From the NCBI GenBank assembly GCA_964515925.1, contig CAZEYP010000005.1, forward strand, positions 276 to 64,275: 64,000 bases of DNA, given 5' to 3'. The notes under the pieces were generated by a model. That model was not told where the DNA came from. It ran no database searches and saw nothing but the letters and a program-made list of their open reading frames with translations. Below are positions 45,017 through 59,520 of this stretch, in pieces (within the stretch, counting starts at the first letter, position 1; the number at the start of each line of letters is the position of its first letter). The stretch comes from an uncultured Nitrospirota bacterium. Lineage in GTDB: Bacteria; Nitrospirota; Thermodesulfovibrionia; Thermodesulfovibrionales; JdFR-85. The position numbers and the translations under genes are program-made.

Positions 45017-46630
45017 TCACAAAATAGCCTTAAATTGCCTCCATAAATACTCCTTGTTTACACCTGTATCTATGAAATCCCAGGGCAGTATTTCATCTTT
45101 TGCCCTCTCTCTGAAGACATAGAATTCTGGCGCAATCTTCTGCTCTTTCATAACCCTGAACCATGCCGATGCATTTCTACACTCTATTAAAAACTGCGAA
45201 AGTCGTCTGTCACCTCGTGCAAGTACACCCTGAAGGTATGCATACTTAACCACATCATGTAAGACCGTAACGCCCCTTTCCGCCCTAAGCCCATCTTTAA
45301 TCATTTTGAGCCTATTTTTTATTGTTTTTTCCTCAGTCATTGCAGTCCATTGAAAGGGAGTAAAGGGTTTGGGGACAAAGGTGCTGACACTAACTGTAAT
45401 CCGCCCTCTCGAAGAAACTGAGCGAATCTTTTTAACAAGATAGACGATATCCATTACATCCTCATCAGTTTCTGTGGGAAGACCAATCATAAAGTATAGC
45501 CTAAGAGTCCTGATATCCTCAGAAAATATCTTTTCAGCAACGCTCAATATATCCTGTTCTTTGATATTTTTATTAACTATATTCCTTAACCGTTGATTGC
45601 CTGCCTCTGGTGCCAGAGAAATGCTCCCCCTGCCTCTGAAGTAACACAATAGCTCTTCGGTCTTCCTGTTCGCCCTTAATGATGTGATAGAAAAGCTCAC
45701 ATCCTTTAATGAAAGAGTCTCTTTTATGTATTTATAATCTGACAGAGATGGCCCTATGAGCCCAACCCTGGCTCCCCTGTTTCTTGCATCCTCTATCTCT
45801 CCGATAAGAGCCTCAAAATCCCTGTTCCTTGGAGGATTGTATATATGTCCGGCAAGACAGAACCTGCAGCTATGCACACACCCCCTCATTGCCTCAACCA
45901 GCACCATGTCAGAAAACTCTGTTTCAGGGGTAACAATAATGTGTCTTACAGCGTGCTCAAGCGACCGGAGGGTAACCTTCCTTATAATCTCTGGTGGTAT
46001 CCTTTGCTTTATGGTGCCATCTTCATTATAAATCACCCTGTGGCGGGACGGAACATAAAAACCATCAAAACCTGATATATCTTCAAGGAATTCCCTTCTG
46101 CTATCTGCTTTTTTATAAACCTCAATCATTGAAAGTAATGATGGCTCTGCCTCTCCAATATATACAAGGTCAAATATATCGGCCAGGGGTTCAGGGTTTT
46201 CTGTGGCAGCTACTCCACCAAGCAGTAATAAGGGATGTCTATCATCTCTTTCTGTTGAAAAAAAAGGTATTCCTGCAAGCTGTAAGATTACAGGTATGGA
46301 AAGATAATCGTTTTCAAAGGATACCGAGAAGGCAACAATATCAAACCTGCTCAGGGGTCTTCTGGATTCGAGAGAAAACAATTGTGAGCCTGTTCTTTTA
46401 AACTCCGCCATAGCCTCACTATCAGGAAGAAAGGCCCTCTCGCATACCACATCGTCTCTGGAGTTTAAGAAACCATAGACTCCCTGAAATCCAAGGTTTG
46501 ACATCCCCACATAGTAGGTATTTGGATAAACAAGGCATATATTCACCCTGCCACCAGGGTCTTTGTAAATGGTTCCCCTTTCCTTTTTAAGTAGTTCGTC
46601 AGCCTTCTGTATCAACCGCCTGCTTATCAT
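45017..46630 (-). CDS. Radical SAM protein with N-terminal B12-binding-like domain
   Basis: 537 aa with a CVHSCRFC cluster motif. The layout resembles the large uncharacterised radical SAM family usually followed by a DUF2344-type region. Confidence 0.75.
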   Translation of the reverse strand: MISRRLIQKADELLKKERGTIYKDPGGRVNICLVYPNTYYVGMSNLGFQGVYGFLNSRDDVVCERAFLPDSEAMAEFKRTGSQLFSLESRRPLSRFDIVAFSVSFENDYLSIPVILQLAGIPFFSTERDDRHPLLLLGGVAATENPEPLADIFDLVYIGEAEPSLLSMIEVYKKADSRREFLEDISGFDGFYVPSRHRVIYNEDGTIKQRIPPEIIRKVTLRSLEHAVRHIIVTPETEFSDMVLVEAMRGCVHSCRFCLAGHIYNPPRNRDFEALIGEIEDARNRGARVGLIGPSLSDYKYIKETLSLKDVSFSITSLRANRKTEELLCYFRGRGSISLAPEAGNQRLRNIVNKNIKEQDILSVAEKIFSEDIRTLRLYFMIGLPTETDEDVMDIVYLVKKIRSVSSRGRITVSVSTFVPKPFTPFQWTAMTEEKTIKNRLKMIKDGLRAERGVTVLHDVVKYAYLQGVLARGDRRLSQFLIECRNASAWFRVMKEQKIAPEFYVFRERAKDEILPWDFIDTGVNKEYLWRQFKAIL

Positions 46631-46652
46631 GGTTTATTATAACAGGCAAGTA

Positions 46653-46975
46653 GAGTTAATTGCGTTTTTTGCGTTAATAGCGTTAATAGCGTTCATAGCG
46701 TTCATTGAGTTGATTGCGTTAATTGCGTTCATAGCGTTCATATAGTTTATTGAGTTAAATGGGTTTGTTGGGGTGGGATGTAGTTAGTGTTGAGAGATGA
46801 ATGTTTAGTGTTGAGTTAGGCTTTTTTACTAAACACTAAAAACTATGCACTCAAAACTAAAACTACTCCCTACACGCTATACGCTACACCCTGTAATGTT
46901 TAGAATTTAGAAATTAGGATTTAGAATTTTTTCTCCTACCCCCTACACGCTACTCCCTACACCCTGTCTTTATTT
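46653..46975. repeat. Compound array: 14 nonamers (GCGTTNATN) then 28 heptamers of four flavours in one unbroken register
   Basis: Nonamers span 46653-46778. Heptamers span 46779-46974: AGTGTTG-type, ACTAAAA-type, CTACACC-type, ATTTAGA-type, then CTAC-type again. Confidence 0.9.
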
Positions 46976-47010
46976 TAATTCCCCCCTTAAATTGTGATAT
47001 ATTAAATAAC

Positions 47011-47961
47011 ATGAAAAAACCAGGACCTGTATCCCTGAAAAACCTGAAACGCTACAGCCTCAAGGAGCGCAAAAGCAAGGTACGCTCTGAATACCTTGGC
47101 AGGCCGGTTTCTCCTGAGGCAAGCCTCTTGGATTTTATTCATTCCATGCCAGATGTCCTTGCAGCAAGGGATATAAAAGATGTCTCAAGGGCAATAATAG
47201 AAGCAAGAAAAAACAAAAACCCTGTAATACTTGCCATGGGAGCCCATCCTATAAAAGTGGGACTCTCACCAATAATAATAGACCTTATTGAGCAGGGGAT
47301 AATTACCGCTCTGGCCACAAATGGGGCAGCCATAGTTCATGACTTTGAACTTGCTTTTGCAGGGCATACATCTGAAGATGTGGCACAAACCCTCGTAGAT
47401 GGCACTTTTGGTATGGCAAAAGAGACTGCAACCATGCTTAACAGGGCCATAAAGAAGGCAGCCAGAGAGGGAAAAGGGCTTGGTGAGGCTGTTGGTGAAA
47501 TGATATACCGTGGAAGAGGCTTTCCCAATCGTCATCTAAGCCTTTTTGGAAATGCATACAGACTTGGCATACCTGCCACAGTGCATGTTGCAATTGGCAC
47601 TGATATTATCCACATGCATCCAGAGTGTGACGGCGGAGCTGTGGGTAAGGCTACCTATACAGACTTCAAGATATTTACCAGCATGGTCTCAGAGCTTGAA
47701 GGCGGGGTTTTTATCAACCTTGGTTCAGCAGTTTTGATTCCCGAGGTCTTTTTGAAGGCATTAACTATAGCAAGAAACCTTGGCAACAGGGTGCAAAATT
47801 TTACCACCCTTACTATGGACTTTATGAGACATTATAGAGCCACTGTTAATGTTGTCCAGAGACCCACCATGTCAGGCGGCAAGGGATATTATCTAATTGG
47901 TCATCATGAGATAATGTTTCCATTGCTTGCAGCAATGGTGAAGGCAGGGAGTAGAGAGTAG
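47011..47961 (+). CDS. Hypothetical protein, possibly deoxyhypusine-synthase-like fold
   Basis: 316-aa ORF. The segment ILAMGAHPIKVGLSPIIIDLIEQGIITALATNGAAIVHDFE loosely recalls DHS-like proteins. Its stop TAG lies in the heptamer array. Confidence 0.4.
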   Translation: MKKPGPVSLKNLKRYSLKERKSKVRSEYLGRPVSPEASLLDFIHSMPDVLAARDIKDVSRAIIEARKNKNPVILAMGAHPIKVGLSPIIIDLIEQGIITALATNGAAIVHDFELAFAGHTSEDVAQTLVDGTFGMAKETATMLNRAIKKAAREGKGLGEAVGEMIYRGRGFPNRHLSLFGNAYRLGIPATVHVAIGTDIIHMHPECDGGAVGKATYTDFKIFTSMVSELEGGVFINLGSAVLIPEVFLKALTIARNLGNRVQNFTTLTMDFMRHYRATVNVVQRPTMSGGKGYYLIGHHEIMFPLLAAMVKAGSRE

Positions 47962-48030
47962 GGCATAGGGTGTAGGGGGTAGTAAAAAAACTACACCCTA
48001 CCCGCTACACCCTACACCCTGTTGTTTAGA
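47948..48030. repeat. Inverted heptamer arrays (NNNGTAG x5, A-rich loop, CTACNCC x4) plus TTTAGAA units
   Basis: gggtgtagggggtag (47968-47982) can pair with ctacaccctacccgc (47991-48005) at 12 of 15 positions. Confidence 0.85.
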
Positions 48031-59279: not shown

Positions 59280-59321
59280 TGTTTAGTTTAAAAATTCTCC
59301 CCTGATGAAATCAAATGTGGT

Positions 59322-59520
59322 TTATTGGTTATTGCGTTATGTGCGTTAATAGCGTTAATTGGGTTAATTGAGTTAATTGCGTTTATTGCGTTGATAGCGT
59401 TTTTTGAGTTCTTTGTGTTCATTGCGTTTATTGTGTTTAAGGCTACCACCCTACCCCCTACACCCTGTCTTTTTTTACCCCCTACCCGCAACACCCTACA
59501 CCCTACTCCCTGTCTTTTTT
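59322..59520. repeat. Composite array: 14 nonamers then CCCTACN heptamers; contains the 87-nt core
   Basis: Nonamer register spans 59322-59447 and heptamers span 59448-59520. The recJ stop and its last codons lie inside the array. Confidence 0.9.

What the first reader, a model, noticed from the sequence alone, without database searches (positions are those of the whole stretch)
46631..47010. A 380-bp divergent intergenic region built almost entirely from tandem repeats kept in one register, with a central imperfect palindrome
Between the radical SAM gene (minus) and ORF 47011 (plus) there are 14 nonamers, then 28 consecutive heptamers from 46779 to 46974 with no phase break. The unit sequence nevertheless changes flavour: AGTGTTG-type, its approximate complement ACTAAAA/ACTCAAA-type, CTACACC-type, ATTTAGA-type, then CTAC-type again. 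The AGTGTTG and ACTAAAA halves face each other around cttttttact (about 46821-46830). They can form a long imperfect hairpin, for example tttagtgtt at 46804-46812 with aacactaaa at 46832-46840. Both divergent promoters would have to lie within repeats. Phase preservation across different unit sequences argues for a 7-nt-step generating mechanism (slippage or templated addition) rather than independent insertions.
Basis: seen in the sequence. Interest (0 to 1): 0.6.

Follow-up and report, generated by a model that had tools for sequence, protein, structure and literature searches.

The report
Copied modular repeat cassette between promoters
The repeat-filled gap between two back-to-back genes of an uncultured Nitrospirota bacterium is a recent copy of a modular, dispersed non-coding element (9-base repeats, a hairpin with a conserved 33-base arm, 7-base repeats). 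It lies between two older, conserved promoters, so it is one more example of a habit of this genome, not a unique switch.

Summary
The periodicity is real: lag 9 z=11.5, lag 7 z=9.6. So is the palindrome: 33-nt arms, 76% complementary. Two claims fail. The register breaks, because the two CTAC arrays are 3 nt out of phase. The promoters are not inside repeats. Both edges are unique DNA carrying extended -10 boxes 5-7 nt before each ATG, and same-genus genomes conserve these boxes.

The same-genus genomes have orthologous spacers of about 100, 130 and 560 bp and lack the arrays. The block 46734-46903 is 100% identical to another divergent spacer on contig C24, and the homology fades inside the flanking arrays.

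The palindrome's right arm (46828-46860) is a 33-nt core found 10 times here, 41 times in one sister species and in none of 29 other relatives. At five orthologous sites the core is 94.5% identical, against 59.5% at third codon positions of flanking genes.

Adjacent units are no more alike than chance, so single-unit slippage did not build the arrays.

Best reading: a BOX/STRR-like modular interspersed repeat copied as a block.

This scan had already reported the genome-wide repeat family several times on other DNA of this genome.

The parts
46628..46646 (-). Start codon of the radical SAM gene (ATG, complement of 46630-46628) and its extended -10 box TGTTATAAT (complement of 46644-46636), 5 nt from the ATG. 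This is leaderless-type geometry. The top strand reads TATTAT at 46635-46640, so -7T and -11A of the two strands coincide, a possible bidirectional promoter.
   Evidence: Sequence. CTGTTATAAT is conserved 6-7 nt before the start in same-genus loci L002 and L008. TATAAT peaks genome-wide 5-8 nt before start codons. The geometry rule is taken from PMC10268837.
46653..46769 (+). Nonamer array of 13 units (G[C/A]GTTNNTN) in one register, with a 45-nt higher-order period. GCGTT is on the strand of the right-hand gene.
   Evidence: Genome-wide the array sits on the sense strand in 27 of 34 same-direction (tandem) contexts.
46768..46816 (+). G/T-rich left arm of the hairpin module (GGGGTGG GATGTAG TTAGTGT TGAGAGA TGAATGT TTAGTGT TGAGTTA). 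It is the variable arm of the family.
   Evidence: Alignment of 14 genomic copies, folds, and one-heptamer deletions in two copies.
46817..46827 (+). Loop of the hairpin (GGCTTTTTT-type T run).
46828..46860 (+). Conserved 33-nt A/C-rich core ACTAAACACTAAAAACTATGCACTCAAAACTAA, the right arm of the palindrome.
   Evidence: Allowing up to 3 mismatches: 10 copies in this genome, 41 in sister species G003, and none in 29 other relatives. At five orthologous sites 156 of 165 bases are identical, against 59.5% identity at third codon positions of flanking genes.
46863..46897 (+). First CTACNCC array (CTACTCC CTACACG CTATACG CTACACC) plus the junction CTGTAATG.
   Evidence: The same CTAC-to-TTTAGRA junction recurs at 6 of 23 TTTAGRA arrays.
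46898..46932 (+). TTTAGRA heptamer array. It contains a sigma-70-like pair, TTTAGA-N17-TAGAAT, at 46899-46927.
   Evidence: Promoter scan. Arrays of this type are sense-oriented in all 23 cases. In 12 of 22 cases they end within 33 nt of a start codon. The pattern is similar in G003 (23 of 37).
46933..46965 (+). Second CTACNCC array (CTAC at 46936/43/50/57), 3 nt out of phase with the first. One unit of it is already present in the sister species.
   Evidence: L001 reads ...cactacacccctgctccctctctttattttaattcccccc... at the same place.
46966..47010 (+). Non-repeat proximal region: CTGTCTTTATTTTAATTCCCCCCTTAAA, then the conserved TTGTGATAT motif (46992-47000), which holds an extended -10 box (TG at 46995-46996, TATATT at 46998-47003) 7 nt before the ATG at 47011.
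   Evidence: TTGTGATAT is conserved in all four genomes of the genus. In another genus (L004, L005) TATAAT sits 7 nt before the ATG. No other locus of the genome matches 46975-47010.
46734..46903 (.). 170-nt block 100% identical to contig C24:11520-11689, in another divergent spacer. Identity decays inside the nonamer array on the left and the TTTAGRA array on the right.

Best explanation
The spacer is a recent copy of a modular, dispersed, non-coding composite element. Its module order is nonamer array, G/T-rich heptamer arm, T-run loop, conserved 33-nt A/C-rich arm, CTACNCC array, TTTAGRA array. The copy lies between two older back-to-back core promoters and next to an older CTACNCC array on the right. 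SHOWN: (1) both core promoters (extended -10 boxes placed for leaderless mRNAs) sit in unique, conserved DNA at the two edges; (2) the orthologous spacer in relatives is short and free of arrays; (3) the central 170 nt are identical to a second locus; (4) the palindrome is a member of a dispersed hairpin family shared with one sister species; (5) unit order follows a grammar and neighbouring units are not alike. INFERRED: the cassette spreads by copying whole blocks. The most likely route is recombination or gene conversion anchored in the arrays, because homology fades inside the arrays and there are no defined ends or target duplications. Array lengths then change by whole units. All polar modules point at the right-hand GSU2086-argD-argF operon. 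Any effect should therefore fall on rightward transcription. One route is a roughly 360-nt structured leader, if the symmetric -10 at the left edge also fires rightward (start near 46647). Another is the promoter-like pair built into the TTTAGRA array (start near 46934). In kind it is a BOX/STRR-like small interspersed modular repeat, largely selfish but with a sequence-constrained core. It is not a locus-specific switch.
For: Genome-wide family: TRF lists 545 period-7 rows and 340 period-9 rows in 2.3 Mb, and the same units occur at about 10 other places in the window. Lineage restriction: CTACNCC x3 gives 55 hits here, 24 in G003, 16 in G002, and none in G001 or in 27 other relatives. TTTAGRA arrays show the same pattern. 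Orthologous spacers are about 130 bp (L002) and 100 bp (L008) without arrays, and 560 bp with a hicAB cassette in L001. Conserved edges: CTGTTATAAT and TTGTGATAT. Leaderless class: TATAAT counts of 11/14/17/17 at 5-8 nt before starts, against a mean of 3.9 at 10-39 nt. Block identity with C24. Dispersed hairpin family: at least 9 full copies at 81-100% identity, all folding into 26-44-pair hairpins with z from -2.3 to -7.8. Core counts of 10, 41 and 0. Polarity: 8 of 8 copies between same-direction genes here are sense-oriented. In G003 the split is 17 sense to 7 antisense, with 12 copies in divergent and 0 in convergent spacers. Core conservation of 94.5% against 59.5% at third codon positions. 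Unit grammar. Where G-rich and C-rich arrays share a spacer, the order is G then C in 29 cases and never the reverse.
Against: There is no transcript data, so whether the cassette is transcribed at this locus is unknown. The hairpin copy here is the weakest of the family (RNA z=-2.3). It lies upstream of both conserved promoters, so it may be inert. No transposition hallmarks (terminal inverted repeats, target duplications) and no associated enzyme were found, so the copying mechanism is inferred only. The genome is a short-read metagenome bin. A 170-nt exact repeat could in principle mislead assembly, although the radical-SAM/GSU2086 adjacency is conserved in three relatives. Gene calls used for context statistics were crude longest-ORF calls.
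Confidence: 0.72

Rival explanations
1. Functional cis-regulatory cassette. The arrays are transcribed toward the GSU2086-argD-argF operon. The hairpin acts as a 5'-leader structure, either an RNase III target or a shield against 5'-end-dependent RNase J decay. The TTTAGRA array acts as a promoter that tolerates slippage, or as an A/U-rich site that loads ribosomes by binding S1 or CsrA. This overlaps with the best explanation and differs only in claiming function at this locus.
For: All polar modules point at the right-hand gene. The left-edge -10 has the symmetric geometry of bidirectional promoters (PMC10268837). TTTAGA-N17-TAGAAT lies at 46899-46927. TTTAGRA arrays end 9-33 nt before start codons in 12 of 22 cases here and 23 of 37 in G003, and several of those starts lack a Shine-Dalgarno sequence. 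The 33-nt core is conserved well beyond neutral expectation. In copies C17 and C24 a TATAAT box lies just upstream of the G-rich arm, and the C17 box is conserved in G003. Precedent: the H. influenzae hmw heptamer repeat forms a 5'-UTR hairpin cut by RNase III (PMC12721329). An rnj gene is in the window and csrA is in the genome.
Against: The conserved proximal promoter lies downstream of the whole cassette, so the gene does not need it. Relatives express the same gene pair without any cassette. This copy has the weakest hairpin of the family. CsrA is present in genomes with and without arrays. There is no RNA evidence.
Confidence: 0.3
2. One reading: the arrays were generated in place by a 7-nt-step process (replication slippage or templated addition), which keeps one register across changing unit types.
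For: Strong 7- and 9-nt periodicity. Gaps of exactly 7 and 21 nt separate orthologous arrays of two species. Single-heptamer deletions occur in two paralogous copies.
Against: The 170-nt block is identical to C24. The two CTAC arrays are 3 nt out of phase. Adjacent units are not more similar than permuted ones, and nonamers repeat in 45-nt steps. There is a fixed unit grammar: CTACACG is almost never last (3 of 169) and CTACACC is last in 93 of 169 arrays.
Confidence: 0.08
3. DNA-level structural element. The imperfect palindrome extrudes as a cruciform under the negative supercoiling between divergent promoters and insulates or couples them.
For: A palindrome lies centrally between two divergent promoters. 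In G003 the hairpin family is common in divergent spacers (12 of 40) and not seen in convergent ones.
Against: The arms are only 76% complementary with an 11-nt spacer, which is poor for extrusion. The same module mostly sits between same-direction genes, in a fixed orientation. One arm is conserved while the other varies, which fits a sequence-specific role better than a purely structural one.
Confidence: 0.05
4. Assembly artefact: a chimeric join or collapsed arrays in a short-read metagenome bin.
For: The genome has 72 contigs. An exact 170-nt repeat exceeds common k-mer sizes. The only other record of the locus is an identical JGI contig, probably the same assembly.
Against: The radical-SAM/GSU2086/argD synteny across the spacer is conserved in three same-genus genomes. 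Both unique edges match relatives. The same module grammar is found independently in G003.
Confidence: 0.03

Closest known systems
BOX elements of Streptococcus pneumoniae (boxA-boxBn-boxC; Croucher et al. 2011, PMC3049150)
   Same: A composite small interspersed repeat with fixed module order and a variable number of internal tandem modules. It has stem-loop potential. It is abundant in one species, present in the sister species and almost absent elsewhere. It lies in intergenic DNA next to housekeeping genes and is thought to affect co-transcribed genes.
   Different: The modules here are themselves arrays of 7- and 9-nt units rather than roughly 45-60-nt boxes. No terminal inverted repeats or target duplications were seen, since homology fades inside the arrays. 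Sequence similarity to BOX was not tested and none is expected. The host is a Nitrospirota bacterium.
Cyanobacterial STRR heptamers and long simple sequence repeats in general (Mrazek et al. 2007, as summarised in PMC4679880)
   Same: Heptamer tandem arrays, many loci, intergenic, lineage-restricted, function unknown.
   Different: The unit sequences differ: STRR units recalled from memory (CCCCAGT, TTGGTCA, CAACAGT) have no tandem copies here. Several unit families are combined in a fixed order with a conserved non-repeat core and nonamer arrays. Neighbouring units are heterogeneous.
TAACTGA direct repeats of marine Beggiatoaceae (MacGregor 2015, PMC4679880)
   Same: Sense-strand heptamer repeats ending a few nucleotides before start codons, often where no canonical ribosome-binding site is present. 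S1, Csp and CsrA were proposed as binders. The TTTAGRA arrays behave the same way.
   Different: TAACTGA itself is absent. At this locus the TTTAGRA array is 85 nt from the ATG, with a promoter in between.
hmw1A (ATCTTTC)n heptamer repeat of Haemophilus influenzae (Rapun-Araiz et al. 2025, PMC12721329)
   Same: A heptamer array upstream of a gene pairs with a G-rich partner into a long hairpin, in an RNA leader that RNase III processes. It is a mechanistic model for the hairpin module.
   Different: hmw repeats are perfect and phase-variable at one or two loci. The units here are imperfect (17% identical neighbours) and dispersed over hundreds of loci. Transcription here is unproven.
Bidirectional promoters from -10 symmetry (Warman et al. 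2021, as described in PMC10268837)
   Same: At the left edge, TATTAT on the top strand and TATAAT on the bottom strand overlap, so that -7T and -11A reciprocally coincide. This is the 18-bp class.
   Different: This is a sequence match only. No start sites have been mapped.

Membership tests
Long simple sequence repeats (units of 1-11 nt, longer than expected by chance) | Tandem units of 1-11 nt with periodicity above chance | tested here: met
   Lag-9 z=11.5 and lag-7 z=9.6 against dinucleotide shuffles. TRF arrays.
Cyanobacterial STRR | Dispersed intergenic heptamer tandem arrays | tested here: met
   545 period-7 TRF rows. 14,070 of 17,875 array bases are intergenic by crude gene calls.
Cyanobacterial STRR | The STRR unit sequences (CCCCAGT, TTGGTCA, CAACAGT; recalled from memory) | tested here: not met
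   No tandem copies (x2 or x3) of any of them in the genome.
TAACTGA repeats (Beggiatoaceae type) | The unit TAACTGA in direct repeats | tested here: not met
   No tandem copies.
TAACTGA repeats (Beggiatoaceae type) | Sense-strand arrays ending a few nucleotides before start codons | tested here: inconclusive
   True of TTTAGRA arrays genome-wide: 23 of 23 are sense and 12 of 22 lie within 33 nt of a start. At this locus the array is 85 nt upstream.
G-quadruplex heptamer repeats (GGGNATC / GGGGAYT; PMC4692102) | The unit sequence, and four G-tracts able to form a quadruplex | tested here: not met
   No such tandem units in the genome, and no G3+N1-7 quadruplex motif on either strand of the spacer.
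Phase-variable contingency repeat | Perfect homogeneous repeat tract | tested here: not met
   Adjacent units are identical in only 17% (CTAC), 18% (TTTAG) and 0.9% (nonamers) of pairs, not above permutation.
Phase-variable contingency repeat | Tract lies inside an ORF or between the -35 and -10 boxes, so that unit number changes expression | tested here: not met
   The arrays lie outside both conserved -10 boxes and outside both ORFs.
Phase-variable contingency repeat | Length heterogeneity within a population | not testable with these tools
No closer strains were found.
BOX-type modular interspersed repeat / MITE | Composite element with fixed module order and variable-number tandem modules, in many dispersed copies | tested here: met
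BOX-type modular interspersed repeat / MITE | Stem-loop potential | tested here: met
   All 14 copies fold into hairpins of 26-44 pairs across the loop, with z from -2.3 to -7.8.
BOX-type modular interspersed repeat / MITE | Terminal inverted repeats and target-site duplication | tested here: inconclusive
   No defined ends were seen. Identity with the C24 copy decays gradually inside the flanking arrays.
REP elements mobilised by a RAYT transposase | A RAYT (Y1 transposase) gene flanked by the repeats and co-occurring with them | tested here: not met
   The single Y1_Tnp gene (C17) is flanked by a different hairpin, TTGCACTTCGGAAGTGCAA. It has no homologue in G002 or G003, which carry the arrays.
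Intrinsic terminator | G+C-rich hairpin followed by a T run | tested here: not met
   No terminator-like site inside 46631-47010.
Any Rfam RNA family | Covariance-model match | tested here: not met
   Only sub-threshold chance miRNA hits, and those lie on the neighbouring 47944-48022 hairpin.
Bidirectional promoter (18-bp class) | -7T and -11A of opposite-strand -10 elements coincide | tested here: met
   Top strand TATTAT at 46635-46640, bottom strand TATAAT at 46641-46636. Rule from PMC10268837.
Bidirectional promoter (18-bp class) | Divergent transcription start sites mapped about 18 bp apart | not testable with these tools

The most novel reading that the evidence does not exclude
The repeat modules are a portable, polar kit of cis-regulatory parts used by one Nitrospirota genus. 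TTTAGRA arrays would be promoters that survive slippage, because any four to five units recreate TTTAGA-N17-TAGAAT. The G/T-arm and A/C-arm hairpin would be a transferable 5'-leader structure. Its 33-nt arm, conserved more strongly than first and second codon positions of flanking genes, would be the docking site of an unknown trans-acting protein or RNA. The kit would be moved between gene starts by gene conversion anchored in the arrays. At this locus it would add a second, regulated route of expression to the arginine-pathway operon.
Probability: 0.2. Interest if true: 0.7.

Novelty: new variant of a known kind. Interest (0 to 1): 0.4.

Why it matters
Heptamer-type repeats (STRR, TAACTGA, G-rich heptamers) have been known for decades in a few bacterial phyla without an accepted function or spreading mechanism. 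This lineage offers an unusually dense and orderly case. It has fixed module grammar, a 33-nt core conserved across species far above neutral expectation, exact block copies between loci, and sister genomes with and without each insertion.

This locus is useful as a natural experiment. Relatives run the same two conserved promoters about 50-90 bp apart without the cassette, while here they are 360 bp apart with it.

If the TTTAGRA arrays prove to be promoters and the hairpin a leader element, that would show that simple repeats can act as exchangeable regulatory parts. If not, the family is a clean example of selfish modular repeats in an uncultured phylum.

Tried and rejected

(2) Closer strains: the look-up of encoding contigs returned only an identical JGI contig. 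The metagenome-contig scan returned nothing closer than 68% protein identity.

(3) REP/RAYT link: rejected. The only Y1 transposase has its own different hairpins and is absent from the sister genomes that carry the arrays.

(4) Candidate binders by presence or absence: CsrA is present across the whole family regardless of arrays and TRAP is absent. Neither result is informative.

(5) Rfam: no family.

(6) Viral origin of the core: no exact hits in viral contigs.

(7) RNAalifold on the 14-copy alignment found no consensus helix, because the arms align in shifted heptamer registers. Single-sequence folds were used instead.

(8) A heuristic to find the left end of the G/T arm and score upstream -10 boxes failed and is not used.

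(9) G-quadruplex reading: no motif in the spacer.

(10) The 38-aa ORF called across the nonamers in the JGI record (MVYYNRQVELIAFFALIALIAFIAFIELIALIAFIAFI) is treated as a by-product of a 9-nt repeat being in frame.

(11) Strict sense orientation of the hairpin module: 8 of 8 here, but only 17 of 24 in G003. It is therefore a bias, not a rule.

Full report
WHERE AND WHAT. The window comes from a 2.32-Mb, 72-contig, 43% G+C genome. Its nearest public relatives are metagenome bins labelled Nitrospirae/Nitrospirota and Thermodesulfovibrio sp.. The spacer 46631-47010 separates a TIGR03960-type B12-binding radical SAM gene (45017-46630, minus) from a GSU2086-family gene (47011-47961, plus). That gene heads a run of argD-like aminotransferase, ornithine carbamoyltransferase and RNase J genes.

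CHECK OF THE OBSERVATION. Periodicity is far above chance: lag-9 identity is 0.73 (z=11.5) in 46646-46778 and lag-7 identity is 0.57 (z=9.6) in 46779-46974. Thirteen nonamers share one register over 46653-46769, with a 45-nt super-period. The palindrome is real: arms 46784-46816 and 46828-46860, 33 nt, 76% complementary. The DNA fold has z=-3.6. Folded over 146 nt as RNA it gives -38.2 kcal/mol, z=-2.6.

Two statements do not hold. First, 'no phase break' cannot be tested across different unit types, and it fails where the same unit recurs. The two CTAC arrays are offset by 73 nt, which is 3 modulo 7, and TTTAG occurs in two phases. Second, the spacer is not all repeat. Its two edges are unique DNA.

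THE PROMOTERS ARE AT THE EDGES. On the minus strand the radical SAM gene is preceded by TGTTATAAT-aaacc-ATG. CTGTTATAAT is conserved 6-7 nt before the start codon in two same-genus genomes (L002, L008). On the plus strand the GSU2086 gene is preceded by TTGTGATATATT-aaataac-ATG, where TG-a-TATATT is an extended -10 box 7 nt from the ATG. The motif TTGTGATAT is present in all four genomes of the genus. In another genus the same gene has TATAAT 7 nt before its ATG (L004, L005).

This genome has a clear class of such genes. Perfect TATAAT occurs 11, 14, 17 and 17 times at 5, 6, 7 and 8 nt before called starts, against a mean of 3.9 at 10-39 nt. Only 6 of 220 divergent spacers have this geometry on both sides, and this is one of them. 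Both genes therefore most likely have short, -35-independent promoters giving leaderless mRNAs. This is an inference from sequence and conservation. The repeats lie upstream of both promoters.

One caveat follows. The left -10 is symmetric: TATTAT on the top strand at 46635-46640 and TATAAT on the bottom strand at 46641-46636. Its -7T and -11A positions coincide, which is the geometry of bidirectional promoters (PMC10268837). A rightward start near 46647 is therefore possible, and it would turn the whole cassette into a leader of about 360 nt.

RELATIVES. The divergent radical-SAM/GSU2086 pair is conserved in the three other genomes of the genus. Their spacers are about 130 bp (G002) and 100 bp (G001) with no tandem arrays. 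In G003 the spacer is about 560 bp and holds a hicA/hicB-like pair. G003 shares only the promoter-proximal ...CTACACC CCTGCTC CCTCTCT TTATTTTAATTCCCCCCTTAAATTGTGATATA. So one CTAC unit and the tail are older than the G000/G003 split, and the rest is specific to this genome.

A COPIED BLOCK. BLAST of the spacer against its own genome covers everything except the two edges. Positions 46698-46926 match contig C24:11484-11712, in another divergent spacer, at 96%. Within that, 46734-46903 (170 nt) is 100% identical. Mismatches accumulate only inside the nonamer array on the left and the TTTAGRA array on the right, and homology ends there. This is what recombination or gene conversion anchored in the arrays would leave. 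No defined termini or target duplications are visible. Neither the C5 nor the C24 copy was seen at the orthologous G003 site, so both look recent.

THE PALINDROME IS A DISPERSED ELEMENT. The module 46763-46895 has at least 9 full-length copies at 81-100% identity. Their alignment shows the order G-rich heptamers, TTGAGTG-type heptamers, T-run, a nearly invariant A/C-rich arm, then a CTACNCC array. All copies fold into hairpins of 26-44 pairs (z from -2.3 to -7.8). The copy at this locus is the weakest.

The 33-nt arm ACTAAACACTAAAAACTATGCACTCAAAACTAA (window 46828-46860) occurs 10 times here and 41 times in G003, allowing up to 3 mismatches. It was not found in G001, G002 or 27 further relatives, nor in viral contigs. 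Five copies sit at orthologous spacers in the two species. There the core is 156/165 identical. Flanking orthologous genes are 86.5% identical in protein, 91.8% at first and second codon positions, and 59.5% at third positions. The core is therefore held by selection or by continuing homogenisation. At those same sites the arrays differ by gaps of exactly 7 and 21 nt, and one arm has lost 29-37 nt.

Orientation is biased toward the downstream gene. All 8 copies between same-direction genes here are sense-oriented. In G003 there are 17 sense and 7 antisense copies, with 12 in divergent and 0 in convergent spacers.

GRAMMAR OF THE ARRAYS. The family is genome-wide: TRF lists 545 period-7 and 340 period-9 rows. 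By crude gene calls the arrays are mostly intergenic and occur at similar density in divergent, same-direction and convergent spacers. CTACNCC and TTTAGRA arrays occur in G000, G002 and G003 and essentially not in 28 other relatives.

Neighbouring units are not more alike than permuted units. For nonamers, neighbours are less alike than permuted units, while identity rises at lag 5 (45 nt, z=5.4). CTACACG almost never ends an array (3 of 169) and CTACACC ends 93 of 169. Where G-rich and C-rich versions share a spacer, the order is always G then C: 29 cases against 0. This speaks against growth by single-unit slippage and for propagation of multi-unit blocks.

TTTAGRA ARRAYS. All 23 are on the sense strand, and 12 of 22 end within 33 nt of a start codon. 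In G003 the figure is 23 of 37, by a naive ORF rule, and several of those starts lack a Shine-Dalgarno sequence. A perfect (TTTAGAA)n array contains TTTAGA-N17-TAGAAT by construction. The scan tool flags exactly this pair at 46899-46927. Two readings remain open: an array-borne promoter, or an A/U-rich ribosome-loading site of the kind proposed for TAACTGA repeats (PMC4679880). At this locus the array is 85 nt from the ATG.

WHAT IT IS MOST LIKELY. It is a BOX/STRR-like modular interspersed repeat (PMC3049150) copied as a block between two pre-existing core promoters. It is tolerated because those promoters need no upstream DNA. Function at this locus is unproven. If the cassette is transcribed, it would act on the arginine-pathway operon, in the manner of the hmw heptamer hairpin (PMC12721329).

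Links to a RAYT transposase, CsrA, TRAP, Rfam families, terminators and G-quadruplexes were tested. They were rejected or found uninformative.

Earlier agents of this scan had already described the genome-wide family on other pieces of this genome. New here are the conserved edge promoters, the C5/C24 block, the cross-species 33-nt core with its conservation test, the unit-neighbour statistics, the fixed G-then-C order and the promoter geometry of TTTAGRA arrays.

Noticed in passing
window 47946-48020: The next spacer (GSU2086 gene to argD) is a hairpin of G-rich heptamers, TAAAAAAA, then CTACNCC heptamers (RNA fold -43.8 kcal/mol, z=-4.4). It starts on the stop codon. The same spacer is 5 nt in G003, about 21 nt in G001, and 218 nt with different (TTTAGRA-type) arrays in G002. 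TAGAAT lies 20-21 nt before the argD ATG in both G000 and G002.
   Followed up: partly
genome contig C17:43032-43740 (locus L024): A 211-aa IS200-like Y1 transposase (RAYT-like) gene is flanked on both sides by the hairpin AATCCTTGCACTTCGGA(A/T)GTGCAA. A few degenerate copies of that hairpin lie elsewhere. It is unrelated to the heptamer arrays and absent from the three same-genus genomes.
   Followed up: partly
L001:3504-3880 (G003, orthologous spacer): In the sister species the same divergent spacer holds a hicA toxin gene (58 aa, PF07927) and a hicB/UPF0150-like gene (67 aa). This spacer therefore appears to be a recurrent insertion site.
   Followed up: partly
whole genome: There is a class of apparently leaderless genes. 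TATAAT and TGnTAnnnT peak 5-8 nt before start codons (about 60 genes with perfect TATAAT), alongside a normal GGAGG Shine-Dalgarno peak at 4-9 nt.
   Followed up: partly
window 46629-46745 (+): The JGI record calls a 38-aa ORF through the nonamer array (MVYYNRQVELIAFFALIALIAFIAFIELIALIAFIAFI). It is probably an artefact of a 9-nt repeat staying in frame. About half of the period-9 array bases genome-wide fall inside such crude ORF calls.
   Followed up: no
window 47011-47961: The GSU2086-family protein (NF052581; faint deoxyhypusine-synthase-like Rossmann similarity) precedes argD in all 23 loci examined across the order. This suggests an uncharacterised role linked to arginine or ornithine metabolism.
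   Followed up: no
genome-wide; window 46651-46756 and 59319-59437: Nonamer arrays have a 45-nt (five-unit) higher-order period, and identical neighbouring units are depleted. TTTAG arrays show an excess of identity at lag 3 (21 nt). No explanation for either.
   Followed up: partly
genome-wide (29 spacers): When G-rich (GGNGTAG) and C-rich (CTACNCC) arrays share a spacer, the order is always G-rich 5' of C-rich, never the reverse. Both orders would form hairpins. This is unexplained beyond common descent of the module.
   Followed up: partly
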